A DNA stretch of 64,000 bases from Lingula anatina (lineage: Eukaryota; Animalia; Brachiopoda): assembly GCA_051362555.1 (NCBI GenBank), contig CM120649.1, positions 15,266,567 through 15,330,566 on the forward strand, in the 5' to 3' direction. A program made the position numbers and the translations under genes. The notes beneath the pieces are model-generated. The model made no database searches. It was given only the letters and a program-made list of their open reading frames with translations, and was not told the origin of the DNA. Every line of letters starts with the position of its first letter. Within the stretch, counting starts at the first letter, position 1. This document shows, one piece after another, positions 6,942 to 64,000 of this stretch.

Positions 6942-13541
<6,600 letters not shown>

Positions 13542-36774: not shown

Positions 36775-37171
36775 CCTTCATTCTATTTCTTTTTGTTCAC
36801 TTCACTTTCTTGTACGGAACGGGACAAGGAAACCTCGAACGACGCAGTGTATTAGCTCACTTAGTCGGAGGACAAGGTAAATTATTTCGACACTAACGTA
36901 AGCTTCTTCGGCTTTGGGTCTTTACAATGTTTCTGTCTTTCCATTTATAACGACATTAGCACATAAAGTCGGGGGCAAGGTAAACTTTTTTAACGTTACC
37001 GTAAACTTCTCCTGCTTTATGTCATTTCAACGTTTCTGTCTAGCCTTTTTCTATCGTTTTTCTATCTTTGTCTTTCGTGTGTACTTCGTGTATTTTAAGT
37101 ATAATTTTTATGTTATTTTTCTTGTATTTTAATTTGGTTGTCTTTACATTTTACGTTACACTTTGTTACTA

Positions 37172-37350
37172 AACTCGGAAACAGAAATGGAAGACGTCGA
37201 GAGAGTGGATGATCTCGGACTGACATACTTTTGTCACTTTATAGAATGTTAACAGAAAGCGGATGTTGTTTGCCTCACATGTGCAGATAGGAAACCTCAC
37301 CCTATGGTTTTGTACTGTAGTAAATGTCACGCCATCAAACACGGCCAACA
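37172..37350 (+). pseudogene. Orphan fragment of the B-box family gene (fifth zinc finger) with an in-frame stop
   Basis: NSETEMEDVERVDDLGLTYFCHFIEC*QKADVVCLTCADRKPHPMVLYCSKCHAIKHG, with TAA at 37250-37252. Homologous to about 48537-48710, and its first 25 nt match the last bases of the window. Confidence 0.8.
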
Positions 37351-37935: not shown

Positions 37936-38868
37936 GATACGTGTTCCTTGGGAAACTGCAACTCTGCCACAGAGATATTATGCCTCGACTGCTCATACAG
38001 CCTAATCCCAAAGCTTTGCGACATTTGTTTACAAAATCTGCACAAGAATTTGGTCCAAATTAATTCCATACCTTTAGAGGCATTCTATGCATCGCTCCGA
38101 CAATATCGATCAACTTGGAATTGGTAAATGCAAAATTCCAGTGCCGGTGTGTTGTGCCCTCCTGTGAAAGATTTGCTTGAATAATGTGCACTGAATGCGT
38201 AACACGTTGCATTCTACTGCTGTGCAACACATGTAACAAGCAAGTGCACATAGGTGACAGGGCTGGTCACCACAGGATTGACCTCTCTCACCTGATGGGC
38301 AATCAGACAGCAGTGTCAGACGAGCTGCATCAAGAAAAAGACAAAAATATAAAAGATTATTGTGGAATATGCTATTCCAAAGCAGTTAACGTATGTTTGG
38401 ATTGTGAGCATAAACTGTGCTCAAAATTTTGTGTAGAACACTATAAAAAAACACATTCACAATCAACATGCCACCAGAAGGTAAACATTTCAGAAGGAAC
38501 AATAGAACTAAACAAAGTTAAAGAACCCAAAAAAATACACCTGCCAGTGTAGGTTAATTGACCATTGTAAAGCCAATGCAGCTGCCGTTTGCCAGGATTG
38601 TTATCCTTCATTTGCTTTGCTGTATTGTGAAACGTGTGATGATTTAATACACAGCTTGGTTAAATCATCTACACACAGAACCATCCCACTGCAACAAGGG
38701 ACATTTGACTCTGACCAAGGTGACGATGATATTATACTTCCTATTGACGAAGACGACCACGGTGCATCAAGCAGCGAGGAAGCGCAATTAACGAAGCACG
38801 CTGTTGACGACACGGACAGAGAAACAGAAGAAGAAGAGGGGGAGCTACGTGGTCACGTGGTCCGATGA
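37936..38868 (+). pseudogene. Disrupted multi-B-box gene copy A (exon 2 equivalent, four fingers, no C-terminal domain)
   Basis: Acceptor TTTCAG|GAT as in copy B. DTCSLGNCNSATEILCLDC... is followed by a frameshift, an in-frame TGA just before 38184, and a second frameshift near the A run at about 38530 (TCQCRLIDHCKANAAAVCQDC in the shifted frame). No exon 1 seen. Confidence 0.75.
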
Positions 38869-38924
38869 CGACAATCGTGCAACCGGCGGAGCTGTCAAAC
38901 TCAGCTGCATTGTATACCTCTTGT

Positions 38925-39074
38925 GCCGTACAGGGGACTTTCCTAGTTCGGCGTGTGACTGCATAGATATAACCAGGACTGGAGGGAAATAAAATGGTAA
39001 AATATGTTACATATGAGGCTGTATCGGACACTCACTCATGACTGGAGTCAATTATTTTCATTGTCCGCGTGTGT

Positions 39075-39139
<65 letters not shown>

Positions 39140-40060
39140 TAAAAGGTGCACTTAAGATTGAAATCGATTTCACAAAGCTACAGGTTTACAATATTTGAGA
39201 TATAACAGCAGTACGTTTTGAGACAGGAACAGTCACAAATTGTGTGAACGCTTTTCTACATGAAGTCCAACCATCAACCGATAATCTGTATGTTTGATAA
39301 TTGCAAACCATATCGTCACAGGCCTGTTCAACAGTAGTTAAAAGAAATAGGGCATTCCCACTTTCATGTACAATGATAAGCACGATCGGGTCATATAGTA
39401 AAGATTTGAGAGGTTTTCCCTCTTGACATGGTAAAGCGGCCCAGCGCCCGATCGGGCCAAACCATAGAAAGCTATAAAAGCGCGTGCACGAGGCAGGTAA
39501 CCGTACAGTATCTGTTTTAAGCACGTGGCGGTAACTTTCACTCAGTCGGGATAGCAATAACATGAATGACAGCCAGACAGTGTGTTCCATGAAAAGCCGT
39601 ATGTATTACTATTAATTCCATGTTAATTATTTTTTATTGGCAAAGAAATATAACGTGATTATACATGTATTAACTAAGAAAATGTCCTACTTTAAACAAC
39701 GGTCACATTTCTTGAAATATTACCAAGCTATTGTCGTGTGTAAGTCGATCGTTAATATTAGCGTTCGTTCCTGCGTGTGATTGGAATGTGCATGCGCGTG
39801 CTTGTGTATGTGTAGTTCTGTATCCGTGTATAAGCATGTTTGTATTTATCTGCTTCTACATGTGTTTGTTAACTTAGGTGTGTGTGTATGTGTGTGTGTG
39901 TGCACGACTGCGTGTGTGTGTTTGATTGTGAACGGGTATGCTTGAGTGTGAGAGAGGGGGGAGGTGTAAAAGTGTTAACATTCAGCAGATCGTTGTCACA
40001 AACGTACAGATACACATTTAACTGGAAACAATCTTATGAAGTACTGTTTTAATCGACTAT
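38925..40060 (+). repeat. Segmental duplication block, paralogous to about 54345-55450 and partly to about 55775-56270
   Basis: Long near-identical direct repeats, e.g. GTGCCGTACAGGGGACTTTCCTAGTTCG...AAGGTGCACTTAAGATTGAAATCG... Confidence 0.9.
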
Positions 40061-40690
40061 ATCATAGAACATTCGCCATGAATACCGTTAGTGACAGATT
40101 AAATGAGTTCCCTAAAAACTCATCCAATTTAAATGGTATTTTAGCTTTCAATGATTTAGTCCGATCGGACTTACGTCTCTCGTATTGTACAGGTGGAATT
40201 CCCAATACGCTTTGATTAGTGATAGATCCATAAGCTATCATAGACTTCAATATAAATATGCACTCTCCCCATACCGATTGTCCCCTGTCGGGTGTTAACA
40301 ATGCGACACCCTAGATACACCCCTTTCTCTTTGGAATGCTTCACTCTAGATAAACCCACTTTGTCTTCGGAATGATTCTAAAGAGAAAAGGTAGTAGCCT
40401 GACTCGTGCCTTTAAAGTGTATTTGGGATTCCCCCCGGCTACTATGTACGATCGGACCAAATCACCGAAAGCTTTAAAGGCATGAGTCAGGCTACCTTAC
40501 CAGTTTATTGGTGGAAGTGCATGGAGGTAACATATACTATCAGCCGGTGTTGTGACAGCGTTGTTATAACATGACAGACAGTCAGACAGCGTGTTCCATA
40601 TAAAAGCCCTAAAATACTGAACTAAACAAACAGGAGTACCATATATCATACGGAGTTAGATACTTCACTTTGTGAATATATCTTTTCCAG

Positions 40691-41394
40691 AGAACACCAA
40701 CCAGATGGGTCAGACTGACCACCAAGAGACCACCACCAGACGGTCAGGAATCATCGCATACAGAGATGTGGGCACGGATATGACCAGGACTGGAGGTAGA
40801 TATGGGGCGGTGGGCATATACTGATTCTGATGGATGTGGTGATTTTCTTCTGATTACCTGTTTAAATTTATCATTTATCCAGTGTTTAACTATCAAGATA
40901 AAAAACACTAGCTTTCACCCTATCTTCCCGTTTTTGTCGTCTGCAGTCCTTCAGCACAAAAATACAAACTTTTTCACACCGTTGTATTATACTTGCAGGT
41001 CCCACAAGGCTGAGAAGACTGATAGCTACCATGGCTGTCGGCACGCAGACAGATGACTGTAAGTGTTAATTTATTGTCTCTTTTTAAATTTTATAAGAAT
41101 ATGCACACTTTTCCAATCTCTCACTTTTATTTTATTTTATTTTTTCACTTTCTGTTTCACTTATTGTGTGTCTGTTTGTCTGTCTGTCTGTTTGTTGTGT
41201 TGGCTCACGGTTAAAACTAAAATACTCTCAATCAAATCTAATACAGTTGAAGTATGTCAGCGCTATTCTCCTTAATTCACCGAGTCATGACAGTTTCAGA
41301 GAATTCTGGACAGAGGGGTCAGGCTGACCAACCAATCCACGCAAGACGTTGTAACAGAGGCGGGACGCCCTGTGGTGACCCTGGTCCCATGTGA
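40691..41394 (+). CDS. Putative chain of three small exons of an unidentified gene
   Basis: 40691-40795, 40999-41058 and 41294-41394 have AG/GT boundaries and join in phase 1: NTNQMGQTDHQETTTRRSGIIAYRDVGTDMTRTG-GPTRLRRLIATMAVGTQTDD-FSENSGQRGQADQPIHARRCNRGGTPCGDPGPM*. No start exon found. Confidence 0.35.
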
Positions 41395-42660
41395 CCCCAC
41401 TGACCAGTGTGACCATAGACTGGACACGGGTGACAACACCAGAAAGATAAATAGAGCACCTGCTGTCTGTAAATTGCGGTTATACTGCGGACCTCTGCTG
41501 CTTGATGTTTGGACAGTGCGTGATTCTTTCGTCAAATTCTTCTAGCAAGGGCTGCACATTTACGGGACGTCTCCTAGTAATAAAGAATAGCTTAATAATG
41601 TCTCTGTTATATGGATTAGAAAGTAAAAGGAAAACCAGAATAGATTATGTTACTTAATTTCTTTATTTTTTTAGTAAATAAAATTTGATATTCTAGTTTG
41701 TTCTTGACATTTTTACCCAAAAGCTGCCAATAACCCAAATGCCATTTCCAGGCATTTTTTGTATTATTTTATTTTAGTTTTATTATTTATTAATAGTTTG
41801 CATTAAATTAAAATTTTTGGTGGGTGGGTTGGGTCGGTAGCTTATTTGTCATGTTTAGTAGCTACTGGCAATTGTAAGAAAATTACACCTTTCTTAAAGC
41901 GTTTTTCTTTTTTAATTTTTTTTTCAATCCATTAAAATCCATCTAATTCGAAAACGACCACAGTTCTTCATTATAGAAAGCTATAAGCTCTCTGCATCCA
42001 ACGTAAAATATTCGTAACCATCGATGCTAGTGATTTAGTCACATGCATGTACTAAGTAGGCTACATACAATAGTGCAATACATTCACCAACTTTTTTTCC
42101 ATCACTCGGGCATCAGTTCCTGTCTTTATTACAATTAAGGACCCAACTTGACCGGTAAAGCGGAATGAACTTTAACTGTTTGCCAAAGTCTGATCGAGCC
42201 TATTCTACGCCTTAGAGGTCCGATCGTGCTTTATTGATTTCAGTACTAGTAGTCTATAGGGACCTACCTTGTATGCTTTGTCACCATGTAAAAGGGGATT
42301 CCCCCAAGTCCGATCGGACATGCTCAGTTCGACCGTGCCGGATGGGGATTTTTCTACGTCATTTTAATATCGACGCGAGATTCCAAAGGCATAAATAAAT
42401 TGGTAAATCATGTTATGTATGATGTTGCGTCGGACGCTCCTGGATTTAATGAGGTCTATTCAATAGTGCGTAAGATTTGAAACATATTCGTTTACAAATT
42501 GTTTACCTAGACTACGTCAATCAGCAGAAACTGTTCAAAATTCGGCCCATTTCACAATGGCAGATGAGGACAGTTACAGTCCGCTGGACTTGTCTCCCCC
42601 TGAGACAGGCGCTAGCCCTCAAAGTCAGCAAAACATGTCTGAAATTCGTCAAGCAACTCA
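41220..42660 (+). repeat. Segmental duplication block, paralogous to about 56400-58464 plus 61666-62020
   Basis: Collinear homologous sequence including the promoter and exon 1 of the B-box genes. The second copy is interrupted by the 58465-61665 element. Confidence 0.88.
42294..42354 (+). promoter_or_regulatory. Paired NF-kappaB-type sites plus GTCCGATCGGAC palindrome upstream of B-box gene B
   Basis: GGGGATTCCCC at 42294-42304, GTCCGATCGGAC at 42308-42319 and GGGGATTTTTC at 42344-42354, about 200-260 bp before the ATG at 42557. Confidence 0.5.
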
Positions 42661-42925
42661 TCCAGGATTCGGTCAGGAAGAAGCCCAACAAGAAAACAGC
42701 TATGGCTACAGTTTTTCACCAAATATTCAAACATCCAAAGCAGCCAGTCTTCCAATGTCCGGCATCAGTGCATTTGCACATGTGGTGAGTAGGCCAATTT
42801 TGCATTCATTCACAGATTTGCGTAAATTAAACTATAGTATCAAATAACCTAAATTGAATCTATTTAGGTTATTGATTTGAAATGGTGACCGGTTGTAATT
42901 AAAAAAAAGGGCACTCTGGAGAATG

Positions 42926-42970
<45 letters not shown>

Positions 42971-43211
42971 GGAGGGGGGGGGGGCTCGTAACTCCGTCGT
43001 GCCAGCCTGTTGTGAAGAATTGGATCATTCCGGATTCGAATGGCGGGTTTTTTTTCAGCTATCATTTGCCATTTTAAGTTAAAACTTTTGTATGCAACGA
43101 GGGAGAGAGGGCCGGGGTTCCCAAAATCTGGATCAAGGGAGCCTTGGGCCGTTTTTTTCTTTTCTTTTTTTTTTTTTAATATAAGTTTGGTGTTAAAAGT
43201 AAATCGAGATT

Positions 43212-43252
<41 letters not shown>

Positions 43253-46200
43253 GTAGGGGGGATCGCCGTCGTGATCAACCTGTTGGGTGAAAATGGATCA
43301 TTTCATATTCAAAACACACCGATCGCGTTTTCTTTAAGCTTTCCCTGCTCTTTATTTTACTTTGTGACAGGAGAAGGGTCCCCGTGCAAGTCTGTCGTTT
43401 TCTAATTCAAAATGGTGATTTTTAATTAGGTACGGGATAAACATTGAGACGAAACGTTGTTATAATAAAAATGCATTGGGGCCTACCTTTGGTTGTGTTT
43501 ATATGTAATTAAATTGAAATGGCTGGGAAAACGTTGAATTTATGTTTGAAAACGGACGTTTGTGTCAACGTTGAATCAACGTTGGCAATTCAACGTTGAA
43601 TCATGATTGATAGTTCAATGTTGTTTCAACATTAGAAATCTCAATCAACGTTGATTATATATGTTGATTTAGCATTGATTATATCTTGATTTAACATTAA
43701 ATAAAAGTTGAGACAAAGCATTTTCAATGTCTTTATTTTGTCCCTGCATAAAAGGAAAAATGCTGCTAATTTAAGTAGTTAAAATATACATAGTTTACAA
43801 CATAGCAATAATAAATAAAAAACTAAGAACAACACTTTTTTTTTACAAAACAAAGCTGCACATCGAATCTGAACTAACACAAAAATTGTCATTAATTATG
43901 CATGTGCATGGTGGGGGGGGAGAGATTTTTGCACACTTTAACCTAAATTATACTATACATTGTCATTTTTAAAGTAAATTATAATTCAAACATATCATTA
44001 ATAATCATAATCACTAGTTCTGTAATAAATAAATCTTGAATAATGAATGAAAAAACATTGTTTTTTAGATGACAGAGAGTTCATTATAACAAAATTATAA
44101 ATAACCATGCAGTAACTGTTTCAATTAAACTTGCATGCTGTCTACATACATGCAAACTCTGAAAAAAGAATGATGTATACCCCATAGATACAGATGTACA
44201 ATGAAAAGACAATTACATGTGCACAAACACAAACCCCAGTATATTGCTGATGCTTTTGAATAAAATTACATCATGAATAAAATCACTCAATGAGTTGAAC
44301 CAGTTTGGAACACTTGTGCTTTTTTCATATCCATATCACTAAGAAATGATACATCAGGCTCCTTGACAAGCTAATAATAATTAAAGGAATTAACAATGCA
44401 ACAAGTACATCTACCAAATTAACAACAGCTCATTTAAATGTCAGGTAAAAACACAACATCCCTTCCTTTGTCAAAGAGAATTAAACTGTCCTTTCAAATA
44501 TATGCTAATTGACAGTTCAGTCTTTAAATTGTCTTTTCAAACATCTGCAGAATAACATATGAACTCCAACTATAATTATTCTAACCACATTGAAAATTCT
44601 CAAATCTAATAAACTCATATCAAACCCCATGTCCCTTTCACTACTACAAATTCCACATGGTCTCTTTCTTTGCCTGCCTTTAAGTCACATTCAAATGCTC
44701 CCTTCACTTGAAAGGTTTCTCAGACGTGTCTGAATACTGTTTGTTTTGTGGTCCTCCACAAGAGCCTGAGACGCATTTTTTTTCTTGGATTGCAGCATTC
44801 CCCATGTATTTTCATCAATGTTATTACAATATGCGCCTGAATCTGGTTATACAGCTAGTACACTGAGATTAATGCCGCCTATCTCTATTTCCACCAAGTC
44901 TCAGTGTATATTGCATTGGTTACCCCACACCAAATGTATATGCACTCCTGGATTATCATGTTCATAACTGTCATATACATGAATATTAGTTTCAGTTTTG
45001 CAGACTTGTTGCACGTTCCATGTTTTCTCAGTCGGGTGGTTTCTACTTCGTTTTTTCATGTCTGAACTCGTGGTGTTTAGACTGAGTTGGTTTGTCAAAT
45101 GACTTCGGTTTTTAACATACTCACAGTTTCTGGAGTTGCACTTTCATTTAAAGCGTTAACAGTCTATGTGTATCCATGTTTCACACCTGCAGAATGTTCG
45201 GGAGAGTCATGAAAATATCTTGTACACATGTCCCCCTGAATGCTACATCAGCGCGCGTCTCTTCTGACATGTATTTTTTAATTTTCTGTCTTTGTTCATT
45301 ATTTCTTTTCGTCCGTTGGTTCTGAAACGATCAAACCTTTTCCGTCAGCAAATGATTTATCTCTCTCTTTCTCATCCTGCAAACTGTCTAGCCAGCGTGG
45401 CCCGTATTTCTCCGGTGTCACGTGAAGAAACCGTCGTCGTGAATAAACCGTTCTGACGGATTATTCACGCGGGGTTAGCAGTCTGTTGACTTACAGTGAG
45501 TAGCTGCACATGCATTTCCAACATTTTCCCGTAGAGAAAGTTGTAGTATTATCAAACACACAATTTCTTTTTAATGAAAATTAATGACTGAACTCTGAAT
45601 TGAAAGAACATTGTAGAGTGAAAGCATTTAAACTACGAGTCTTAGATCTACCACGTTTTTCACACAGAGCAAAACAGTTCAGTCACGATCAAAAGCTCAC
45701 TTCCAACATTCCCCTGTATACTGTACATGTAGTAATACGTTTATCAAATACATACTCTCTCATGACGAAAACCACTGAATTATGAATTGAAAGATCATAG
45801 TTCAGTGCAAATATAGCGCCTACTTAGGACGACATTGTCATACCGGAAGTTACTTCTTTCAAACTACCCTCACTGCGCATGTGCAGAACGGTTTCGTCAC
45901 GGCACGGGTCTATCACGCCACACCTGACTTCTGTACGCTTCGAATTTCGTAATTTCACGTTTTCCTCCATTTTCTCAAAGAAAGTTGGCTCGCAGTTTTG
46001 CACTAAAGTTAATCCTCGTCTCCAGTGTTATTGCCTTCGAATTATATCGCATCACGAATCGAATCAATCAACGAATTGTATCAGTTTGATACGCCTGTGC
46101 TTCTTCGTATCCACAACTCTAAAAACGCTACATCCGGGTACTTGACCGGCTTGTCATAAAAAGCGGAATTTAAAAATAGCGGAACGAGTACTTAGCTCTA

Positions 46201-46445
46201 AAAAGTTAACAGTTCATTCAAATGTCAAGTCCAATTTATATCAAATAGTGCAAATATGATGAGGGGACTTTGAAGTTTGAAGAAAAGAGAGAAAGAGAGA
46301 GATAAATCAAAATTGATCAAATGACGTTAGTTCAATGCATTCAGCTCACTTGTCAATAAAAAAAAATAGACAAAAATTAAATAATTAAAATAATAAAATA
46401 AATAAAAAATAAAATAAATGACATCACCAAATATTGGCTTGATGG

Positions 46446-46492
<47 letters not shown>

Positions 46493-49250
46493 GACACAGA
46501 TTTGTCTGTATAGGGTTCAAATAACTGTCACCTGCGGTCTGTCGTCGCGGTTGGCATGCATACTGTCTCAAGTTGAAATGCAAAAACTGAATCCATGTTG
46601 AATTAACATCTTTAACTAATTATAAGTTACCTCCTGAATAGTCATTATGTTAACTTGAAATGCCAAAGTTGAATCAATGTTAAAACCTGACCAGAAAATC
46701 AATGTTGGGAGGAATAATTGAATCAATGTGAAAAATTTACTCAAACATCAACATTCAAAAATGCAAGTTGAATAAGGTTGAAATAATGTAGGTTTATCAA
46801 CTCAATCTTACTTCAAAGTTGAATCAATGTTGAAATGCCAACGTTGAATTTGTTGTCGTTGAATCAAAGTTGAATCAATGTTGATATGCCAATGTTGAAT
46901 TTGTTGTCGTTGAATCAACGTTGAATCAATGTTGAAATGTCAACGTTGAATTTGTTGTCGTTGAATCAAAGTTGAATCAATGTTGAAATGCCAACATTGA
47001 ATTTGTTGTCGTTGAATCAAAGTTGAATCAACATTGAAATGCCAACGTTGAATTTGTTGTCGTTGAATCAATGTTGAATCAACGTTGAAATGCCAACGTT
47101 GAATTTGTTGTCGTTGAATCAAAGTTGAATCAACGTTGAAATGCCAACGTTGAATTTGTTGTAGTTGAATCAACGTTGAATCAACGTTGAAATGCCAACG
47201 TTGAATAATGGTCGTTGAATCAACGTTGTTTCAACGTTTATCAACGTCTCAACATAAATTCAACGTTGAATCAACGTTGTGTGCCTGCTGGGAAGTTCAC
47301 GCTTATATTAGCAATTTATTATACACAAAAATATAAAAGTATAATTGTGTAAACGTGTTCCTTTCTTTTCCATTAAGAAAATTGAGCCTTTCTAAAATTG
47401 AGCCTTTGATTCAACTTCGACGGATGATGTCTACTGTAATAATGTGATGTCTACTGTAATAATGTCTGACACGGGTATTACCGTACTCATCAACTCCACA
47501 ATTTCAGGATAGGTGCTCAAAAGAAAGTTGTCCATCGCCAGCAGAAGAAGTCTGCCTGGACTGCTACTACAGTGTTATACCCAAATTTTGTGATAAATGT
47601 TTCAGCCGACAGCACCAAAAACACGTTAAACACAGAACATTTCCAATCAACGCATTCTGTCACATCGCCCAGCTAACTACAGGGGAAAGAAATGCAGCTA
47701 CAACACGAATGCCACGTTCATACCCTGTCTCATCAACGGCTGCGACACGTGATAATAACATGGGGACGAGAACAGAAACTACTACAGTATGTAAATACAC
47801 GTGCTTTAAAGCAGTCTTGACTCCTTTCTGCGAAGGAGTTGCCACAGTGATGTGCATCGAATGCACACACCGTTTGGCTCTACTGCTGTGCCACAAATGT
47901 GACCATGATATTCACACGAATGAACGTTCTGGCCATATTAGGGTTCCCCTAAGTCATCTCAAAGCCGATCTGACTCAAACAGTGTCTCCAAAAGAGCTGC
48001 TTGTAGACAATAAAACTGTACTGCAAAATAATACATTCCATATGTGTTTTGACTGCAAAGCCCTTGCAGTGTCTCTGATGTGTCTCGATTGTGAACAAAA
48101 AGATTACCCAAAAATGTGTCGCACGCATGCTGCCGACCATCATAGAAACAGTTGGTCAACATGCCACAATAGGATCAAGTTGTCAGACGGAACAAGAATA
48201 CCGATACACATTTGTCAGTGGAGATGGAAAGGAAGATGTAAAAACGTAGCTACACTGGTGTGTGTAGATTGTCGTCCGTTGAGTGGTTTGTTATTTTGTC
48301 AGACCTGTGATAATAATTTACACCGTTTACTCATTTCAAACCACCGAAGACTTCCAATACAACAAAGGGCACCAGAAGAAAAGAGCTTGCCATCTCATGG
48401 TAACTCTCGCCAAAATGACTTCTTTATACGTGTTCAAAACGAGGAGGACAGCAGCCCTGCAACATTACCGACACACAGCGTGGACGCACACACTATGACG
48501 GCTGCTGTTGATGGCACAAACTTTGCCATCGACACCAACTCAGAAACAGAAATGGAGGGTGAAAGTGCGGACGAAGTTGAATCAACATACATTTGTTACT
48601 TTAAAGGATGTAAGGAAAAAGCCGATGTTTTTTGCCCCACATGTGCAAATAAGAAACCTCCACCTATTGTTTACTATTGTAGTAAATGTTACGCCAATAA
48701 ACACGGTCTGAAGAAACAGGAGTCCATTCAAATAAATGAAAAAGTCAACGAGCCAGGGGTTCAGACAGGTGCAGAAGTTGCAGCCATACCTTCATATAAG
48801 TTCACAGAAAACGTCGAAAAAGATATGGCTTCTGGTGCAGACGACCTCGCAACACCCCCTGTTCAGCAACCTGAACAAACTCCGCAGAAATCAACTATCA
48901 AACGTCGGGCGAGCGCAGCTTCCATGAATTCCCTACATATCATCCACGATCGATACGCTGAGGTGAAAAAGAGAGTGATTGACCACGGGGACAAGCTGGA
49001 GTCAGCTTTCGATAACGCAAGGGTCGCAAAGTCAACTTTTTGGGGCAAGATCGGAATAGCAGAACTTAATTTAATAGATCCCCAAAAATACCAGAAATTA
49101 CAAGTGGAACACAGCAAGTCTAAAACAACGACTTTGCAAAAGTTTGAAAATCTGTGCCGTGAAGAAATAAAAAACAATTGTCAAGAAAAAGTGAGTAAGG
49201 CTAGAGAAGATGGTACACTTATCAAACTGCAAACTAAGGCCTATGACTAA
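42557..49250 (+). CDS. Multi-B-box zinc-finger protein with a C-terminal CCDC106-like domain (copy B, about 656 aa)
   Basis: Exon 1 42557-42784 (GTGAG donor, phase 0) joins exon 2 47508-49250 (TTTCAG acceptor), in frame with the 513-aa ORF. Five C..C..CxxC..CxxC/H..H..H B-box-like units. The C-terminal RY...AF...RV...T...IAEL...P.K...L..F...C...KV pattern resembles CCDC106. Confidence 0.85.
43530..47292. mobile_element. Non-autonomous CACTA/EnSpm-like DNA transposon in intron 1 of gene B
   Basis: Right terminus ...GTGTGCCTGCTGGG (CCCAGCAGGCAC on the - strand). Dense AACGTTGAATC subterminal repeats at both ends in inverted orientation. The left outermost TIR appears lost, and the element is absent from the paralogous intron of gene C. 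Confidence 0.65.
46816..47230. repeat. 51-bp minisatellite (about 7-8 copies) made of subterminal repeats
   Basis: Unit AAAGTTGAATCAA(C/T)GTTGAAATGCCAACGTTGAATTTGTTGTCGTTGAATC. It gives the 17-aa periodicity seen in ORF 46940-47173. Confidence 0.9.
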
Positions 49251-50306
49251 TATGCATACACAAGTGTGCTACCATGTGGTATATACAGACTAACAGTTAT
49301 AGCTTTGTTGATGAATATTGCTACACAAGTTAATTAATGATCTTTTTTAACGATTGACTTATTATCCATTTCGTAAAATACAGGCATTAACAATTTTAGT
49401 CAAAATCGGATCGCTTAACATATGCCTCTTATTTGTTGTCTAATCATATATTTACAGTCGATATTACAAATGTATATAAATTACAACTGTGTATAATATT
49501 AGTGTGTGTACTAATATATTACTTCATTTATTGTCATAACAGAATGATTCACAATTTTTTTTCCTATTTATTGAGAAGGGTGTTACTCATGAGTATTAGT
49601 TTTACAAGATAAACAACCTCCACTGTATATGATGGATTGCAGTAAAGCAGTTATGTCCACGATTTATTCAACAGCATGGAAAAATTATATGGGCCATTAA
49701 AAAAAGTGGCTTATATTTTCTTCTTTGTTTTCTGTGGGGATGGGAACGCCCCCTAAGCTTTATATATATAGATAGAGTCGTTAGAGTATTATTTGTGGAC
49801 AAGGAGAATTGGATTCCAAGCAAATAAGGAGGGTACAGGAGGACATGTGAATTTCACTTTCAGCCTTCAATTGCGTAAGGTAGGGATTATAGTGATAATA
49901 ATTAAGACTCTATATTTTGTTGTCAGGTCAAGAGGGCAGATAGTTATTTTCTTGATTAAGATGTTGAATTGTTATGCACTTTTTGCTTTGGGATCGATAG
50001 TATAATACCCTGATACGAAGCAAGAAAGTGACACATGATAGCGGCAAAAGTTTTTTTTCACAATAACAAGGAAGCACTTTAATTTTTTTTACAACCTGGC
50101 GTTTATTTTAAATGCATTGTGCACAACAGTTTAGGGATGCTTTATTCAGTTTTGTAAATTATCTAAAGGAGAATTGGTTTACTCATATTTTGTATTTTAT
50201 GTATGAATTGTTTTGCCACGTGTTTGAATTTTAACGCTTTTTATGTGCAGTGACTTTTTGTTTGCAGGTCTATCAATGTGTATTGTCTTGATTCATGTAA
50301 GTTTAA

Positions 50307-50621
50307 AGGGATAATAACTGTTTGTATGAGATCTATATTTCACAATAAAAACATTGTGAATAATTCGTAGAAAATATAATATATTCTATTTTACCACAAA
50401 AACGGCAGTTATAGCTATTATTCTGATGTCTGAGCTTGTCTTTAGACCACGTGACCTCCATTTCTTAAGGGATTTTAACAAAAAACCAAACTTTTTAGAA
50501 AAAAAACAGGGACTAACTTTGAATGTAAAAATGGGTTCATTAACCATTGGTTAGTATGGGAAAATTGTTGTTTACTCCAGAAAAATTCATTTTTTGGCCA
50601 AAACGAAGAGTTATTATCCCT
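50307..50621. mobile_element. TTAA-targeting MITE, copy 2
   Basis: TTAA|AGGGATAATAACT...AGTTATTATCCCT|TTTA. Homologous to 34469-34703 and absent at the paralogous position near 52960. Confidence 0.65.
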
Positions 50622-51552
50622 TTTATGTAAAGCAACTTTTCCTCAAAGAAAAATCCACTTCATTAAGTCATAAGCAATAAGTGGTTTCATATTACAATAT
50701 TTTGATTTTTAATGTAATCAGAAGATTTGGTAGGGGAGTAATGTGAGAGAGTAAAGTTTCTGGGTGTAAGTTGAGTTACTGTGGAGATGATTTCCTCACG
50801 TACTTACACAGAAACATCACCGCTACAAATGTTTTTATTCGAATGTGTGGTAGGGTTACCTACCGATGTTTCTCACGAAATTATGGTTATACTTCACTTT
50901 TTTATGTATATCCAATTTCAAATTTCAATATGACAGACAGTCATTGTTTTCTCACGTACATACACTGGACAATGGAAGTGTAAATCAGAGTAATCAAAGT
51001 TATTAACCTGAAGAGGTGGAATATAAGCAATGTCAGAATATCGATACAGTTGAATTGTTCTGTCAGAACCGTTTCTTTTGTGAAATTTGATGTTAATAAA
51101 ATGATACCAGGAGCATATCATTCCACAGTCATTTATCTCCCCCAAAGTATTGATTCAGTAGGGGTGACACTTCTATTGTCCAGTGTGTGTACACCGAACC
51201 AGTGATAAAATGACGGTAATACTGTGGACCTCTGCTACTTGATGGTTTGGCAGTGCGTGCTTCTTTTGTCATATTTCTTTAGAACATTTTGCAAAGACTG
51301 CACAATTAGATAGATAGCATTTCTACGGGACTTTTACTTGTAATTTAGAATGGCTTCATACTGCCTCTGTTCTATGGATTAGAAAGTAAAAGGAATATCA
51401 GCATAGCTTATGTTATAAATTGCTCTTTAATTATATAAAGTCTGATATTCTTGTACCGCTCATGTCATTTTAACACACAAGCTGTCAGTAACCCTAGTGT
51501 TAAATTTGTTTTCTTTTATTCCTCCTTTATCTATTCATGATTTTTTACATTC

Positions 51553-51906
51553 ATCAAACGCCGGGCGAGCGCAGATTCCTTAGATTCCCTGGAGAGCATT
51601 CACGAACGTTACGCTAAAGTATCTAAAAGAGTTTTTACAGACAAGGTAAATTTAAAGTCAGCATGTGAGGAGACGGGAGTCGCAAAACAGACGTTTATGG
51701 ACAGGGTCGGAATTGCAGAACTTAAAATAATAGACCTCCACAAATACCAGGAATTAGAGGAAGAATATCGCAAGTCATCAAGGCCGACTGTGAAAGGGTT
51801 CGAAACTCGGTGTCGTGAAGCCATAAAAACAATGTTTTTGGAACAAGTGAGGGAGGCTAGAAAAGATGGTAAACTTCTCAACCTGAAAACTAAGGCCTAT
51901 GACTAA
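51553..51906 (+). pseudogene. Orphan open-frame copy of the CCDC106-like C-terminal domain
   Basis: IKRRASADSLDSLESIHERYAKVSKRVF...GIAELKIIDLHKYQEL...NLKTKAYD*, homologous to about 48897-49250 and followed by the same 3' flank. No ATG or splice acceptor at its 5' junction. Confidence 0.75.
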
Positions 51907-52282: not shown

Positions 52283-54286
52283 GAGCTGGTTGTATATACA
52301 CAGTCTTAATTCGTGAAAGGAATTGATTATGGTGATAATGGTTGAGACTTTTGTTGCCAAGTTAAGAGGACAGACAGTTATTTTCTTGATTAAGATGTTG
52401 AATTGTGCAATTTTTAATGTTTAGTTATCAGGGATAGATTTTATAGTTGCTTTATGAAAGAAGAGAAAGAAGTTATTTGCTGGGTTCAATAATGGTTGAT
52501 GTTGGTGGCGAGAGCGTGAGTCACCCTGTGTTGCTGGAGCAGGAACACCTTGACGACCGAGCGGCGCGATAAATTGTTAAAATACTGAGATGGATACTTG
52601 AGCGAGGTTGGCAATTATTGAAGATGGGGTCAATAAAGACGCCATGGAAGGACGCATGTATGGGCGGACTCCCCCCCCCCCCCCCAACCCCAACCAAATA
52701 ACGTGGCAAGAAAGTTTCACAGTCAGAAGGATGCACTTCTTTTGATTTAAACAAAACATTTATTTTTTTCATAACCTCGCGTATATTTTCAATGCATTGT
52801 GCACAACAGTTTAGGAATACTTTATTCAATTTTGTAAATTATCAAACAGGATTGGTTTACTCATGATATTTTGACCTGTATGAATTGTTTTACCACGTAT
52901 TTTAATTTTTATGTTGTGTGCAGGTCTATTAATGTGCATTGTCTTAATATATGTAGTTTAATAAAGTTTTATTCTATTATTGTGTCTTTTCTTATTTTTA
53001 TTTTGATGCTTAATGTAATGCAACTTTACCTTAAAGAAAATGTTAACTTCATTAAGTCGTTAGCAGTTGGTGGTTTCAAATTACAATATTTTGATTTTTA
53101 ATATAATAAGATCTTAAATTTTGATTTTGAAAATTTTGACAAGTTTTGAGCACAAAAACTTGATAAGACTAAAGTTTTGAGGTGTAAGATGAGTTACTGT
53201 GGAGATTTCCTCACATACAACTATTGGAAATATTACAAATTTTCCATGAAAATTAAGGGGCTGACTTGCCTGATTTTATAAGTAAAAGATTCAATTGAAT
53301 TGATTTAATAGAGTTAAATTGTTCAGTCAGAACCGTTTCTTTTGTGAAATTTGATGTTAATAAAATGATACCAGGAGCATATTATTCCACAGTCATTTAT
53401 CTCCCCCAAAGTATTGGTTCAGTAGGGGTGACACCTCTATTGTCCAGTGTGTGTACACCGAACCAGTGATAAAATGACGGTAATACTGCGGACCTCTGCT
53501 GCTTGATGGTTTGACAGTGCGTGATTCTTTCGTCAGATTTCTTTAGAACATTTTGCAAAGGCTTCACAATTAGATAAATAGTATTTCTACGGGACTAGTC
53601 ACTTTTACTTGTAATTTAGAATGGGTTCATAATGCCTGTGTTCTATGGATTAGAAAGTAAAAGGAATACCAGCATAGCTTATGTTATTAATTGCTTTTTA
53701 ATTAAATAAAGTCTGATATTCTTGTACCGCTCAAGTCATTTTTAACACACAAGTTGTCAATAACCCTAGTGTTAAATTTGTTTTCTTTTATTCCTCCTTT
53801 ATCTATTTATGATTTTTTATATTCAGTTAATGGGATGGGTGGTAGCTTATTTTTCATATTTAGTAGCGACTGCATTTGTAAGAAAATTCCACCTTTCTTC
53901 TCAAGGTGATTTTCCATTCGAGAGTTTTAATCCATCCTACTTAAAACTGACCCCTAGAGCGTCAGAACTCTATTAGCTGTCTGCATTCAAGAAGAATTTG
54001 TTAGCACCGATGGTATTGAATTGGGCACATTTACCAAGTCCATACAATAGTACAAGGCATTCACCAACTTTTGCTAAGCTCAGTTATTCCATTTATTTAT
54101 ATATTCATTACAATAGAGGACCAAACTTGACCGGTCAGAGCGGAATTAACTATGATTTTATTTTATAACTCTTTTAACAGTTAAAACATTGCCCAAGTCA
54201 GATCGTTCATCGAGTTGATTCGACACTTAAGAAGGTCTGATCGTGCTTATTGATTTCAGTATCACCTTGTAGGTAAGTTATTAAAA

Positions 54287-54365
54287 GGGGATTCCCCAAG
54301 GCCGATCGGACTGAGTCTACGCAGTATATATACAAGGTTCGCATGTGCCGTACAGGGGACTTTCC
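54287..54365 (+). promoter_or_regulatory. Paired NF-kappaB-type sites (paralogous upstream module)
   Basis: GGGGATTCCCC at 54287-54297, CCGATCGG at about 54302-54309 and GGGGACTTTCC at 54355-54365. Confidence 0.45.
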
Positions 54366-54526
54366 TAGTTCGACGTGTGACTGCATAGATATAACCAGGA
54401 CTGGAGGGAAATAAAATGGTAAAATATGTTACATATGAGACTGTATCGGACACTCACTCATGACTGGAGTCAATTATTTTCATTGTCCACGTGTGTGTGC
54501 GGGTGTGTGTGTGTGTGTGTGTGTGT

Positions 54527-54571
<45 letters not shown>

Positions 54572-55256
54572 AAAGGTGCACTTAAGATTGAAATCGATCC
54601 ACAAAGCTACAGGTTTACAATATTTGAGACATAACAGCCGTACGTTTTGAGACAGGAACTGTCACAAGTTGTGTGAACGCTTTTCTACGTGAATTCCAAC
54701 CCTCAACCGATAATCTGTATGTTTGATAATTGCAAACGAAAGCGTCACATGCCTGTTCAACAGTAGTTAAAGCAAATAGGGGATTCCCCCTTTCATGTAT
54801 AATGATAAGCACGATCGGGTCATAGGGGGCTTATAGTAAAGATTTGATAAGTTTTCGCGGCCTTTAAAACGAGGCAGGTAACCTTATAGTATCTGTTTTA
54901 AGCGTGTCGCGGTAACATTCACTCAGTCGGGATAGCAATAACATGAATGACAGCCAGACAGTGTGTTCAATGGAAAGTCGTATGTATTACTATCTATTCC
55001 ATGTTTACTATTTTTTTATTGACAAAGAAATATAATGTGATTATACATGTATTTACTAAGAAAATGTCCTACTTTAAACAACGATCACATTTCTTGAAAT
55101 ATTACCAAGCTGTTGTCATGTGTAAGTCGATCGTTAATATTAGCGTTCGTTCCTGCGTGTGATTGGAAGGTGTATGCGCGTGCTTGTGCATGTGTACTTC
55201 TGTATCCGCGAATAAGCATGTTTGTATTTATCTGCTTCTACATGTGTTTGTTAACT

Positions 55257-55294
<38 letters not shown>

Positions 55295-56925: not shown

Positions 56926-59639
56926 ACCAGTCCACGCCAGACATTGTAACAGAAGCCGGACGCCCTGTGGTGACCCTCGTCCCGTGTGGCCCCACTGACC
57001 AGTGTGACCATACACAGGAAGATATAGAGAGCACCGACTCTCTGTAATTTGCCATAGCGAACAACTCGATTATATAGAAACAGCTTCTAAACAGTACTTC
57101 AAATTATGACACAAAGTTGATGTCATTTATTATTCTTAAATATTCTGTAATATCCAATATATTCTGGATTATAGCTGTTATTGTAAAGTGATTCATGAAT
57201 CGTCGTATTCTAACATACACTGGACTAGCAATAAAATGACGGTTATACTGCGGACCTCTGCTGCTTGATGTTTTTACAATGCGTGATTCTTTCGTCAAAT
57301 TTCTTTGGAGAATCCGTAAGGGATGCACGATTAGATAAATAGTATTTCTACGAGACGTCTCCTAGTAGTTAAGAATTGTTTAATTATGTCTCTGTTATGA
57401 TTTAAAAAGTACAAGGAAATATGTTACTTTTAAGTAAACTTGATGTAATTTATTTTTCTTAAACATTCTGTAATATCCAAGGTATTCTGGATTATAGCTG
57501 TTATTGTAAAGTGATTCATGAATCATTGTTTTTTCTCACATACAGCGAATCAGTGATAAAATGCGGACGTCTGCTGCTTGATGTTTTGACAATGAGTGAT
57601 TCTTTCGTCAAATTTCTTTAGGAAAGTTTGCAAGGGCTGCACATTTAGATAAATAGTATTTCAACGGGACGTCTCCTGGTAATTAAAAACAGTTTAATTA
57701 CGTCTCTGTTATATGGTTTAAAAAGTAAAAGGAACTATGTTACTTTTGAGTAAATTTCTTTTTTTTAAGTAAATTAAGTTATTAATATATTCTATTTTAG
57801 ATATTCTAGTTTGCTCTTGTCATTTTTACCCAAAAGCTGTCAACAACCCAAATGCCATTTCTAGGCATTTTTTTGTATTATTTTATTTTAGTTTTATTAT
57901 TTATTAATAGGTTGCATTTAATTAAAAATATTGGTGGGTGGGTTGGGGTGGTAGCTTGTTTGTCGTGTTTATTACCTGCTGGCAATTGTAAGAAAATTAC
58001 ACCTTTCTTAAGGCGTTTTCATTTTTTTATTTTCTTAAAATCCATTAAAATCCATCTTATTCGAAAACGACCCACAGATCTTCATAATAGAACGTTATAA
58101 GCTTTCTGCATCCAACGTAAAATATTCGTAACCACCGATGCCAGTGATTTAGTCACATGCATGTACTAAGTAGGCTACATACAATAGTGCAATACATTCA
58201 TCAACTTTTTTCCATCACTCGGGCATCAGTTCCTGTCTTTATTACAATTAAGGACCCAACATGACCGGTAAAGCGGAATTAACTATAACTGTTTGCCCAA
58301 GTCGATCATCGAGCCTATCCGATGCCTAAGAAGGTCCGATCGTACTTATTGATTCATGAGTAGTACACATGTACCTTGTATCAAGCTGTATGCTATGTCA
58401 CCATGTAAAAGGGGATTCCCCAAGTCCGATCGGACTAAGTCGCGCACGCTCAGTTCGACCCTGCTAGTCTAGTGGGATTTCCACAAAAGATGAATAGTAG
58501 GGGCATTTTGGGGTAAAAGTTGGGAACCAGGCTTATTAGCATAACTTTGGGATGCTGATTCCGATTTACCCGGTTCCCAAGCGAAATTTTGCGTTTTTAC
58601 CGGTCTAATTTGCAAAAAAACAAAATGGCCGCCAGATTTCCTATTTTCTGCAATATCTCTGGGACTAGACAGGCAAATGTGACAAATGAAGTGTCTTTAC
58701 CTATATTTTCAGGGTCGAGGAACATTATTAAGATGTTTCTGTTAGAATTAGATTTACGCAATTTTCCTAAATATGTAAATTAGGATCGCCATTACTGAAA
58801 AACTGTTTTACTTCTGTATCTCTGTAACTAGGCAAGCAAACATGACAAATGAAGTGTCTACACCTATGTTCTCAGGGTCAGGGAATGTGATAAATCAGAT
58901 GACTTGTCTGATGGGTAGCACTGACTTTGTGAATCGTGTCCGAGTAGCATCTTTTATTGTTTCTTCCCTGTATCTGTCAAACACAAGTCAATCTGCTGAT
59001 AGTTAGAACTTCAGAACTGCTTTTACGTTAACTAGGCAAGCAAACATGACATATGAAGTGCCCACACCCATGTTTTCAGCGTTAGGGAAAGTGATTAAGA
59101 CATTTTCACTATAATCAAATCAGCAATGAGTGCTACACTGTCACACTGTAGCAATTATTCGAATCTGAATTGAATTTTGCAATTAAATACTGCGCTGCCA
59201 TTGGGATGTAAACATATTGGATCACACAACTGCCCCTTTTACCTAGATTTAAAAAAGATTACCTTATTAATGCAATAGAGGGATTTGCTGAATCAAGTAA
59301 TTCATGTGATGCAATGTACAGACTTCACATTTAAAATGGATTTTTTTCAAACATATTTTCTTTGAATTTTTCCCATATATTAGTAATGGATGAAAATACA
59401 CTTGTTATCGTGTTCGATATGGCTTTAATAAATCAACCCGGGTGAATACATCATCAAAAATTTAATTTAAATAATAATTTAATATTCAAATCAGCGTTAT
59501 AAACAGCGCATGGATAATTTTATAGCTGATAACGAGGTATTACATTCTTATGAACTCGATATTATCAAGAATATCAGTTGGTAAGGATTTTCTCTCACAC
59601 AAAAGAATCATCAATACAAATGTGAAAAATGGAAACTGA

Positions 59640-61904: not shown

Positions 61905-62584
61905 ATGGCAGAAAACGACGATCAGAGTCCGTTAGACTTGTCTCCCCCTGAGACAAGCGCTAGCCCTCAAAGTGAGCCCAACATGTCTGAAAGTCGTCAA
62001 TTAACAGATTCAGGATTCGATCAGGCAGATTTCCAACAAGGAAATAAGGGCGATGACTTTCCCTCACGAGAGGATTTAGCGTTTGTATATAAGGATTTGT
62101 CACCTTTTACGAACATACACCGTGCAACGCCAAGTGATCCCGAAAAGATTCATATGACAGGCACGCATATGGTGAGTAAGCCAATTAATTGTGACAGGAG
62201 TGGGAGAAGGGTCCCCTAACACCTCGGTTGTTTTCTAATTGAAAATGGTGGTTTTAAGTTTGGTACGCGATATACTGTACATTGACACGAAACGTTGATG
62301 TAATAGAAATCCATTGCCTTTGGTTGTGTTTGTGTGAAATTAAAAGTTTTTCTGGTCCGAAGTAATCGTGATTTGCTGGGGAACACAGCTGGTCCCGAGG
62401 ACAAGACTGAGCGTCCGTGTATCAGGGAGTCCACCCTTCATTTAATGACATGGATTAAGGCTTACCTGTGCAAATGAATGGGGACCCCGAACTGTCTATC
62501 ATGGGGACTCTCTGTCGCGTCACACCGGGTGACAAAACCTGTTCAATTTATTTGTGGTAATCATTATGGTTATTATCATAATTG

Positions 62585-62618
<34 letters not shown>

Positions 62619-64000
62619 TATTATTATTATTATTATTTATTTATTTATTTTTTATCTGCATGCTTCTCCCCTACTAAAGTTTTATACAGTATACGTGTAG
62701 GTGTGCCTTTCTGATCCTGAAAGATTTTCATGTATAATGAATAACTATAATCCATGTCTGTGTCGAAACAGGCCACACCTTAACCGAAATACATGTAAGC
62801 CTTTCGTAACGCTGCGTCCAAGTTTACCCTTTAAATGTAAACTCCAAAGCTTACAGCAGCATTTCAATATACAACAAAAAGTATACAGATATAAAAGGGA
62901 AAATTAAAAAAAATCAATTGATCCCTCGATTAGACATTGACGGAAAGTTTCCATTGTTGTATACATACAGATGCATTACTCATGAATTCCTCAGTTACAG
63001 GGTATGTGTGCCGCGGAAAAGTGCTTTTCAACAGCAGAAGAAGTCTGCCTGGACTGCTACGCCAGTTTTATTCCCAAACTTTGCAATAAGTGTTTCAGAC
63101 AGCGGCACCCAATACACGCCAAAAACAGTACGCTATCAATCAACGCGTTCTTTAACATCGCCCAGAAAACTGCAAAGGAAAGAAATGCAGTGGATACGAG
63201 ATCAGAGGCTGCTGAAGTATATGAATACATTTGCTACAAAGCAGTTGTCTTTATTTCCTTCTGTGAAAGAGTTGCCACAGTGATGTGTACTCAATGCTTT
63301 GATGCCGCCGCTCTACTCTTGTGCTACAGATGTGACCAGAGGATGCACACAAGTGACAGTTCTGGTCATATTAGGGTTCCCTTGAGTCATCTGAACCAGG
63401 CAGGGTCACCAGAAGAGCTGGCTGTACACACAGACATTGCATTGCAAAATAAATGTGTTGGCTGTAATTCCCTGGCGGATATGATGTGTCTTGGTTGTGA
63501 ACAGAAGTTTTGCTTCAAACTTTGTAGCAGACATGTTGGCACATTTCATAGAAACATGCGATCATCATTTCACTATAGGATCAAGTTGTCAGACGGGACA
63601 AGAATACAGTCACGTGTAAACTGTCACCCCGAAACACGCATTTGTCAGTGCAGGGAGAGAGGACGCTGTAAAGCTGTGGCTTCATTGGTGTGTTTAGATT
63701 GCTCTTTCCCTCACGGTTTATTAGTTTGTCAGACCTGTGATGATTTTGTGCACGGTGCTAGGTTGTCCAAGTTGCCATGCCACAAAAGAATTCCAGTACA
63801 ACAAGGGACAACAGAAGAGCAAAATGTGTCATTTCATAGTAACCTTCACCAAGGTGACTTTGGTATACTTGTTAACAACGAGGAGGACAACAGCGGTGCA
63901 ACGCTATCAGCACGCAGCGTTGATGCACATACGATGACGGACGCTGTTGACAGCACATACTTTGACACCGACGCGAACTCGGAAACAGAAATGGAAGACG
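61905..64000 (+). CDS. Multi-B-box zinc-finger protein, copy C (runs off the right edge)
   Basis: Exon 1 61905-62171 (MAENDDQSPLDLSPPET..., GTGAG donor, phase 0). Exon 2 starts at 63001 after TTACAG and stays open to 64000 with four B-box-like units. It is missing from the ORF track because no stop codon lies in the window. Confidence 0.85.

What the first reader, a model, noticed from the sequence alone, without database searches (positions are those of the whole stretch)
42557..49250. Unusual architecture: five B-box-like fingers fused to a CCDC106-like domain, with no RING or coiled-coil
Seen: a two-exon gene of about 656 aa with an acidic N-terminus containing SPLDLS, five zinc-finger units and a roughly 115-aa helical C-terminus. 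Recalled alignment: human CCDC106 RYKKIL...SRAFEHHRVDRNT...PIAELLIVAPEKL...SKERLLEYSRRC...KKV against this protein's RYAEVK...SAFDNARVAKST...GIAELNLIDPQKY...SKTTTLQKFENLC...EKV. Known: PLDLS is the CtBP-binding motif (conserved in copies B and C), human CCDC106 is reported to bind p53, and B-boxes normally occur one or two per TRIM protein. Inference: a lineage-specific, possibly NF-kappaB-responsive family of CtBP-recruiting nuclear regulators. I do not recognise this combination. It is the best candidate here for an undescribed system.
Basis: partly seen in the sequence, partly recalled or inferred. Interest (0 to 1): 0.8.

Follow-up and report, generated by a model that had tools for sequence, protein, structure and literature searches.

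The report
Five B-boxes fused to CCDC106 domain
An invertebrate gene, weakly transcribed and tandemly duplicated, joins five B-box-type zinc fingers to the end domain of human CCDC106 in one reading frame, a pairing absent from the databases searched, and it likely acts as an immune-inducible repressor of gene activity in the nucleus.

Summary
The architecture is real. One stop-free 580-codon exon (47508-49250) holds five Cys/His fingers and a C-terminal domain. Scanned alone, that domain passes Pfam's CCDC106 cut-off (31.6 bits vs 30.2, E 1.9e-7), but only on model positions 128-217 of 220; the N-terminal part is unmatched. The fingers are divergent type-1 B-boxes, all below Pfam cut-offs; their profile's best PDB hits are CONSTANS B-boxes (E 0.0015). 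Finger 5 lacks its last ligand. No RING. Paralog comparisons show purifying selection (dN/dS about 0.5). A few sense RNA reads cover exon 2; the exon 1-2 junction was not observed, though splice sites and phase are kept in the paralogs. No homolog turned up in four protein searches, and this scan has not noted it on other DNA. PLDLS and a kappa-B site are present, but PLDLS conservation is weak evidence because the 5' ends of the two copies are unusually alike. CtBP, p53 or DNA binding and inducibility are untested. Verdict: a new domain combination from known parts in a lineage-specific tandem family (earlier notes call the genome Lingula; unchecked). Best guess: inducible nuclear co-repressor.

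The parts
42294..42304 (+). kappa-B consensus site GGGGATTCCCC, 263 bp upstream of the ATG
   Evidence: block 42289-42319 is 93.5% identical to 54282-54311 while the flank 41471-42171 is 68% identical to its counterpart
42557..42784 (+). Gene A coding exon 1, 76 aa, acidic, phase-0 GT donor
   Evidence: homologous exon and donor in copy B; no RNA laid on it
42581..42595 (+). PLDLS motif (CtBP-binding consensus)
   Evidence: exact motif in 17 of 20000 shuffles of the protein, PxDLS in 192 of 20000
42785..47507 (+). Predicted intron with GT microsatellites and a 51-bp minisatellite (46813-47238)
   Evidence: splicing inferred, not seen in reads
47508..49250 (+). Gene A exon 2, 580 codons plus stop, holding all five fingers and the CCDC106-like domain
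   Evidence: sense RNA reads in run X4
47514..47633 (+). B-box-like finger 1 (8 ligands)
47802..47936 (+). B-box-like finger 2 (8 ligands)
   Evidence: 14.7 bits against a profile of 11 Pfam-positive B-boxes
48045..48167 (+). B-box-like finger 3 (8 ligands, most divergent)
   Evidence: no B-box hit on its own
48213..48344 (+). B-box-like finger 4 (8 ligands)
   Evidence: Pfam zf-B_box 18.8 bits, E 0.0019, cut-off 24.1; 17.3 bits
48366..48587 (+). Acidic Ser/Thr-rich linker (16 D/E, 17 S/T in 74 aa)
48594..48704 (+). B-box-like finger 5 (7 ligands, last His absent)
   Evidence: ANCHR-like_BBOX 17.5 bits, cut-off 27
48885..49247 (+). CCDC106-like helical C-terminal domain (Pfam stretch 48948-49226), opening with a basic patch
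   Evidence: PF15794 31.6 bits, E 1.9e-7, model 128-217/220; AlphaFold2 model pLDDT 62
51553..51906 (+). Orphan fragment D: second CCDC106-like domain and stop, joined upstream to duplicated non-coding DNA
   Evidence: PF15794 29.6 bits; 53% identical to A; junction
37936..38868 (+). Copy C: pseudogene of exon 2, fingers 1-4 with frameshifts and a stop, no C-terminal domain; displaced finger-5 fragment at 37157-37345
58411..58421 (+). kappa-B site of copy B, separated from its exon 1 by a 3.1-kb inserted element (58499-61622)
61905..62171 (+). Copy B exon 1 (89 aa, PLDLS at 61929, phase-0 donor)
63001..64000 (+). Copy B exon 2, 333 codons open to the window end, fingers 1-4

Best explanation
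Gene A is an intact member of a tandem gene family in which five B-box-type zinc fingers and a CCDC106-type end domain share one exon, and its product likely works as an NF-kappaB-inducible nuclear co-repressor adaptor. Shown: the fusion in one reading frame, the domain matches, purifying selection and low sense transcription. Inferred steps: (1) Rel/NF-kappaB would switch the gene on through the upstream kappa-B site; (2) exon 1 would be spliced on, adding a PLDLS motif that would dock CtBP; (3) the CCDC106-type domain would bind the activation domain of a transcription factor, as the human domain binds p53 residues 15-29; (4) the B-box array would replace CCDC106's coiled coil as the self-association and partner-binding part. 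The predicted net effect is feedback damping of a stress or immune transcription programme.
For: Pfam CCDC106 in two paralogs, 31.6 and 29.6 bits, next-best families at or below 14 bits. The human C-terminal domain, not the N-terminal one, binds the p53 activation domain, Kd 0.32 uM (PMC10713525, parts 1-2 of 4 read). Human CCDC106 is nuclear, with its NLS at 151-164 (PMC6423756 passages); a basic patch opens the domain here (sequence). The finger profile finds CONSTANS B-boxes first (E 0.0015-0.009), then weaker ZFYVE19, PML and MID1 among other zinc fingers. dN/dS is 0.47 (0.32-0.69) on fingers 1-4 and 0.52 (0.30-0.92) on the C-terminal domain. Exact PLDLS occurs in 17 of 20000 shuffles, and CtBP binds PLDLS proteins (PMC9907507 passages). 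kappa-B consensus occurs at 8 places, about 5 independent, all between 37.8 and 58.5 kb, and is selectively conserved in one diverged unit. Acceptor position and phase are kept in three copies.
Against: The exon 1-2 junction was not seen and no read covers 47280-48104. Of 7 runs laid, only X4 covered gene A's coding exon in several bins; X6 and X8 gave one thin bin each, and X1, X5, X7 and X9 none. The CCDC106 score falls to 28.4 bits, under the cut-off, on the whole open frame. All fingers are below Pfam cut-offs. Exon 1 shows no purifying selection (dN/dS 0.89, 0.49-1.68), and the A and B 5' regions are unusually alike (91% upstream; pS 0.13 in codons 1-45). PLDLS and kappa-B were picked after the fact. 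Two of the four copies in the window are broken.
Confidence: 0.38

Rival explanations
1. The C-terminal domain is a helix-turn-helix that binds DNA directly, making the protein a sequence-specific repressor laid out like plant CONSTANS (B-boxes plus a DNA-binding end), perhaps with a domain of mobile-element origin.
For: The model has two short helices (38-44, 49-55) joined by a turn. Weak Pfam HTH_10 hit on copy D, E 0.057. By my count 25 of the 44 weak PDB Foldseek rows shown are HTH-type regulators, several family labels recalled. The top viral row is a virophage putative transposase, E 0.33. The domain is basic (24 K/R vs 16 D/E).
Against: No Foldseek hit at E <= 0.001; many rows are the same protein (QacR). 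Re-alignment gives Z 3.4 or less for HTH proteins. The model is modest (pTM 0.47). The human domain is reported to bind protein.
Confidence: 0.2
2. It is a RING-less, TRIM-like immune scaffold or decoy: the B-box array polymerises on or sequesters targets, and PLDLS is incidental.
For: Fast divergence (53-57% identity between paralogs), tandem birth and death, kappa-B sites. TRIMs with B-boxes are innate-immunity proteins (PMC3503706 passages).
Against: No RING pattern and no TRIM C-terminal family in Pfam. The fingers' closest solved relatives are CONSTANS B-boxes rather than TRIM ones. The partner domain is that of a nuclear protein.
Confidence: 0.2
3. It is a decaying duplication cluster whose copies have little present function; gene A is intact by recency and its reads are background transcription.
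For: Copy C is a pseudogene, D is a fragment, and B's promoter is split by an inserted element. Gene A has very few reads. No database gene model was found.
Against: dN/dS is significantly below 1 on the fingers and on the C-terminal domain at dS near 0.55-0.6. A and B keep 580 and 333 codons open. A D-type paralog is transcribed at depth 4.6-8.6 in X6.
Confidence: 0.15

Closest known systems
CCDC106 (Pfam PF15794; human nuclear p53-binding protein)
   Same: Shares the C-terminal part of the family model (128-217 of 220), predicted helical, at the protein's end and behind a basic patch.
   Different: The N-terminal, coiled-coil-bearing part of the model is unmatched; five B-box fingers and a PLDLS exon stand in its place; 656 vs 280 aa. 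The relation is remote: no CCDC106 protein was retrieved by single-sequence search.
Plant BBX / CONSTANS proteins (PDB 7vsp, 7vsq, 7wsj)
   Same: Tandem B-boxes without RING in a likely transcriptional regulator; best PDB hits of the finger profile.
   Different: Five fingers instead of one or two, a longer loop between ligands 4 and 5 (8-11 residues), no CCT hit in Pfam. That CONSTANS ends in a DNA-binding CCT domain is recalled. Likely convergent.
TRIM/RBCC proteins
   Same: B-box-type fingers; local expansion.
   Different: No RING; five B-boxes rather than one or two after a RING (definition in PMC3503706); a different C-terminal domain.
Amorphochlora B-box-array protein (P0001 / P0002, GAB5358450.1)
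   Same: RING-less array of B-boxes (5 in P0001, 11 in P0002); the only hit of the full-library search, E 3e-4.
   Different: Fused to EML beta-propellers, no CCDC106 hit; shorter ligand 4-5 loop; unrelated lineage.

Membership tests
CCDC106 (PF15794) | Score above Pfam gathering cut-off (30.2 bits) | tested here: met
   31.6 bits for the isolated domain; 28.4 on the whole open frame and 29.6 for copy D, both just under
CCDC106 (PF15794) | N-terminal coiled-coil region (model positions 1-127) | tested here: not met
   only positions 128-217 matched; exon 1 has no Pfam hit
CCDC106 (PF15794) | C-terminal domain binds the p53 activation domain | not testable with these tools
   shown for human only (PMC10713525)
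B-box type 1 zinc finger | Eight Cys/His ligands in B-box order with H-x-R-x-P-type tail | tested here: met
   fingers 1-4 have eight ligands, finger 5 seven; tail clearest in fingers 2 and 4
B-box type 1 zinc finger | Pfam zf-B_box or ANCHR-like_BBOX above cut-off | tested here: not met
   single fingers: best 18.8 of 24.1 and 17.5 of 27 bits; whole frame 21.1 of 27
B-box type 1 zinc finger | Profile or fold similarity to solved B-boxes | tested here: inconclusive
   profile hits CONSTANS B-boxes at E 0.0015-0.009; 22.0 bits vs best of 1000 shuffles 10.1; the fold model of exon 2 was unusable, pLDDT 34.5
TRIM/RBCC | N-terminal RING followed by one or two B-boxes | tested here: not met
   no RING pattern, no RING Pfam hit
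TRIM/RBCC | Coiled coil after the B-boxes | tested here: inconclusive
   no such Pfam hit; no dedicated predictor was run
CONSTANS-like BBX | CCT domain (recalled definition) | tested here: not met
   no CCT hit at E <= 10 on the C-terminal domain
CtBP-recruiting repressors | PLDLS motif in an unstructured region | tested here: met
   depends on exon 1 being spliced on
CtBP-recruiting repressors | Physical binding to CtBP | not testable with these tools
   no CtBP sequence was available to the complex predictor
Helix-turn-helix DNA-binding domains | HTH fold in the C-terminal domain | tested here: inconclusive
   weak hints only

The most novel reading that the evidence does not exclude
An animal lineage has independently built a CONSTANS-like regulator family: an NF-kappaB-induced, CtBP-recruiting repressor in which a five-B-box polymerising array drives a CCDC106 end domain that is a hidden helix-turn-helix. 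This would show that the CCDC106 domain is a free, shuffled module and would recast human CCDC106 as a DNA- or chromatin-binding protein.
Probability: 0.15. Interest if true: 0.72.

Novelty: new variant of a known kind. Interest (0 to 1): 0.47.

Why it matters
CCDC106 is known almost only from human cancer-cell work, and no solved structure matched this domain. A natural fusion that keeps only its end domain marks that domain as the independent functional unit and gives a divergent pair of sequences for finding its binding surface. The locus is also an expressed, selected gene family missing from the protein collections searched, and a candidate feedback regulator of invertebrate immunity. The parts are all known kinds and the mechanism is untested, so the interest is moderate.

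Tried and rejected
Homolog searches. Word-seeded: 0 of 88 candidates at E <= 0.001 (319-1015 aa), 0 of 122 at E <= 0.1, 0 of 4395 at E <= 10; the last two covered 213-2000 aa, so shorter proteins were not covered by these three. phmmer over 1.84 billion representatives: 1 hit, an unrelated B-box array. ESM Atlas: no usable hit twice, which shows nothing either way. Viral contigs 0 of 193 and 0 of 3 stretches; metagenome contigs 0 of 317 and 0 of 38, so no support for a viral origin. PDB by sequence: none for exon 2, two chance-level hits for the C-terminal alignment. Fold searches: nothing significant, best Z 5.0 on generic helices. The single-sequence model of exon 2 was unusable. No RNA holder was listed by the index; same-species raw reads were laid instead. 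How well these collections cover this animal's proteins was not controlled.

Fragment D as an alternative last exon of gene A (lead from earlier notes on this genome): disfavoured. The nearest AG dinucleotides (ending 51569 and 51574) are out of phase with exon 1's phase-0 donor. Reads on D carry many differences and, by bin depth, stop at about 51553, so they likely come from intact paralogs. No coding joint between A and D was among the joints shown; 16 rows were not shown.

High read depth at 50250-50744 and 50910-51239 comes from dispersed repeats (both strands, loose ends), not from the gene. The 21 vs 2.7 kappa-B count was not taken at face value, because it counts strands, overlaps and duplicates.

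Literature: ten searches listed no paper whose title or abstract describes a B-box/CCDC106 fusion or an invertebrate CCDC106 family. One search showed 40 of 143 papers, the library lacks most subscription journals, and no supplements were read.
Full report
Setting. The window is AT-rich animal DNA with microsatellites; no whole genome is held. Earlier notes on the same genome call it the brachiopod Lingula; I did not test that.

Gene model. The ATG at 42557 opens 76 codons ending at a GT donor after 42784. An AG acceptor before 47508 opens 580 codons to the stop at 49250. Copy B has a donor in the same phase and context (after 62171) and an acceptor in the same phase (63001); copy C has the same acceptor at 37936. 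All fingers and the C-terminal domain lie in the single exon 2, so the fusion does not depend on the splice model; only the PLDLS leader does.

Fingers. Five units lie at 47514, 47802, 48045, 48213 and 48594; the pattern, fitted to these units, never arose in 5000 shuffles. An alignment of 12 fingers from copies A, B and C keeps five Cys and one His invariant. Fingers 1-4 of A have eight ligands and finger 5 has seven. Pfam scores are below cut-off: zf-B_box 18.8 of 24.1 for finger 4, ANCHR-like 17.5 of 27 for finger 5, nothing B-box-like for finger 3. A profile built from 11 Pfam-positive B-boxes of P0002 scored exon 2 at 22.0 bits, against a best of 10.1 in 1000 shuffles; only fingers 2 and 4 carried that score. 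The 12-finger profile hit CONSTANS B-boxes first in the PDB (E 0.0015-0.009), followed by PHD, ZZ, ZFYVE19, PML and MID1 fingers at E 0.1 or worse. 'Divergent type-1 B-box' is the best label. RING-less B-box arrays are not unique: the one hit of the full-library search is an Amorphochlora protein with 5 B-boxes, whose full-length cluster member has 11 behind EML propellers.

C-terminal domain. Scanned alone it gives Pfam CCDC106 at 31.6 bits, E 1.9e-7, above the 30.2 cut-off, on model positions 128-217 of 220. The second copy at 51553 (53% identical) gives 29.6 bits; the next-best families score 14 bits or less. On the whole open frame the score is 28.4. The homology is credible but remote and limited to the last 90 positions. 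I infer that this is the compact helical C-terminal domain which, in PMC10713525 (parts 1 and 2 of 4 read), binds p53 residues 15-29 while the N-terminal domain does not. Human CCDC106 is nuclear (PMC6423756, passages) and is also reported to bind ATF4 (PMC9208459, abstract). AlphaFold2 on a two-sequence alignment gave an all-helical model (pLDDT 62, pTM 0.47) with a helix-turn-helix-like pair. Four fold searches found nothing significant; the weak Foldseek rows lean towards HTH proteins, which is only a hint.

Is it a working gene? Nei-Gojobori dN/dS with bootstrap intervals: A vs B exon 2, 0.55 (0.40-0.77); fingers 1-4, 0.47 (0.32-0.69); non-finger parts, 0.73 (0.40-1.35); A vs D C-terminal domain, 0.52 (0.30-0.92); exon 1, 0.89 (0.49-1.68). 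The two domain types have been under purifying selection but evolve fast. Seven of the nine listed RNA runs were laid, each read in part (6-30%). At 95% likeness X4 gave 6 reads on exon 2 and the start of the 3' flank, all in the orientation expected for sense RNA; X7 gave 3 partial reads in the 3' flank; X1 and X9 gave none. At 88% likeness X4 again covered 48270-49424 thinly, X6 and X8 touched one coding bin each, and X5 none. X6 (depth 4.6-8.6) and X8 covered the D-type domain with many differences, pointing to other transcribed paralogs. Expression is therefore shown at a low level, and the junction is open.

Cluster. From 37.9 kb to the window end there are four related pieces: pseudogene C (frameshifts, a stop, no end domain), intact A, orphan domain D behind a duplication junction, and B, open to the window edge. 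An element with 535-bp inverted ends and a Tc1-like transposase remnant separates B's kappa-B site from its first exon. This is birth-and-death evolution by tandem duplication.

Regulatory motifs. Exact PLDLS is rare by chance (17 of 20000 shuffles; PxDLS 192) and is the CtBP docking motif (PMC9907507, passages). Its sharing by A and B says little, because their first 45 codons and upstream DNA are far more alike than exon 2, as gene conversion or recombination would give. The kappa-B consensus (recalled pattern) occurs at 8 places, about 5 independent, all between 37.8 and 58.5 kb and none in the first 37.8 kb. The site at 42294 sits in a 31-bp block 93.5% identical to the diverged unit at 54282, whose flank is only 68% identical. 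That is the best evidence that the site is functional.

Mechanism. I commit, at about 0.38, to an inducible nuclear co-repressor adaptor: kappa-B-driven expression, CtBP docking through PLDLS, capture of a transcription factor's activation domain by the CCDC106-type domain, and multivalency from the B-box array. Every binding step is inferred. The rivals are a direct DNA-binding repressor (0.2), a RING-less immune scaffold (0.2) and a decaying cluster (0.15).

Comparison and novelty. It is not a TRIM: no RING, against the definition in PMC3503706 (passages). It is not a full CCDC106, since the N-terminal part is unmatched, and not a CONSTANS-like protein, since there is no CCT hit. It carries a CCDC106-family domain and in layout resembles plant BBX regulators. 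No homolog was found, and ten paper searches listed no description. An InterPro architecture query and a search of animal genomes could not be run, so 'undescribed' holds only within these limits. I rate it a new variant of known kinds, interest 0.47.

Noticed in passing
window 38922-41470 and 54344-57047: A second duplicated unit alternates with the B-box genes. It shares a promoter-like block with them (about 38948-39033, 54370-54455, 42393-42439, 61700-61780), has its own kappa-B site (38934, 54356) and a conserved open stretch (41300-41470 vs 56900-57047) that may be a small coding exon. A short exon-like piece with ATG at 41031 contains a TQT motif resembling a dynein light chain LC8 site (recalled).
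   Followed up: partly
window 56498-56927: 42-bp tandem repeat, 10.4 copies, open in two + frames, expanded inside the second unit's putative exon.
   Followed up: no
window 58499-61622: Element with 535-bp terminal inverted repeats (96% alike) and a minus-strand Tc1/PAX-like transposase remnant, inserted in copy B's promoter.
   Followed up: partly
window 50303-50623, also 34465-34708; second element about 50980-51190: Short dispersed repeats with inverted ends, abundant in RNA on both strands.
   Followed up: partly
window 41486-42690 vs 57562-58464 and 61739-62040: Upstream DNA (91% in aligned columns) and the first 45 codons of copies A and B are much more alike than their second exons (62% at synonymous sites), suggesting gene conversion of the promoter and 5' end.
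   Followed up: partly
window 11134-12932: Exons of a CCCH-finger, RS-rich splicing-factor gene; the U2AF35-related ZRSR2 label is recalled, and Pfam gave only weak CCCH hits.
   Followed up: no
window 46813-47279 and 43565-43711: 51-bp partly palindromic minisatellite in gene A's intron, with related shorter copies at the other end of the intron.
   Followed up: no
P0002 (GAB5358450.1): Amorphochlora protein of 2563 aa joining EML beta-propellers to 11 B-boxes, itself an unusual architecture.
   Followed up: no
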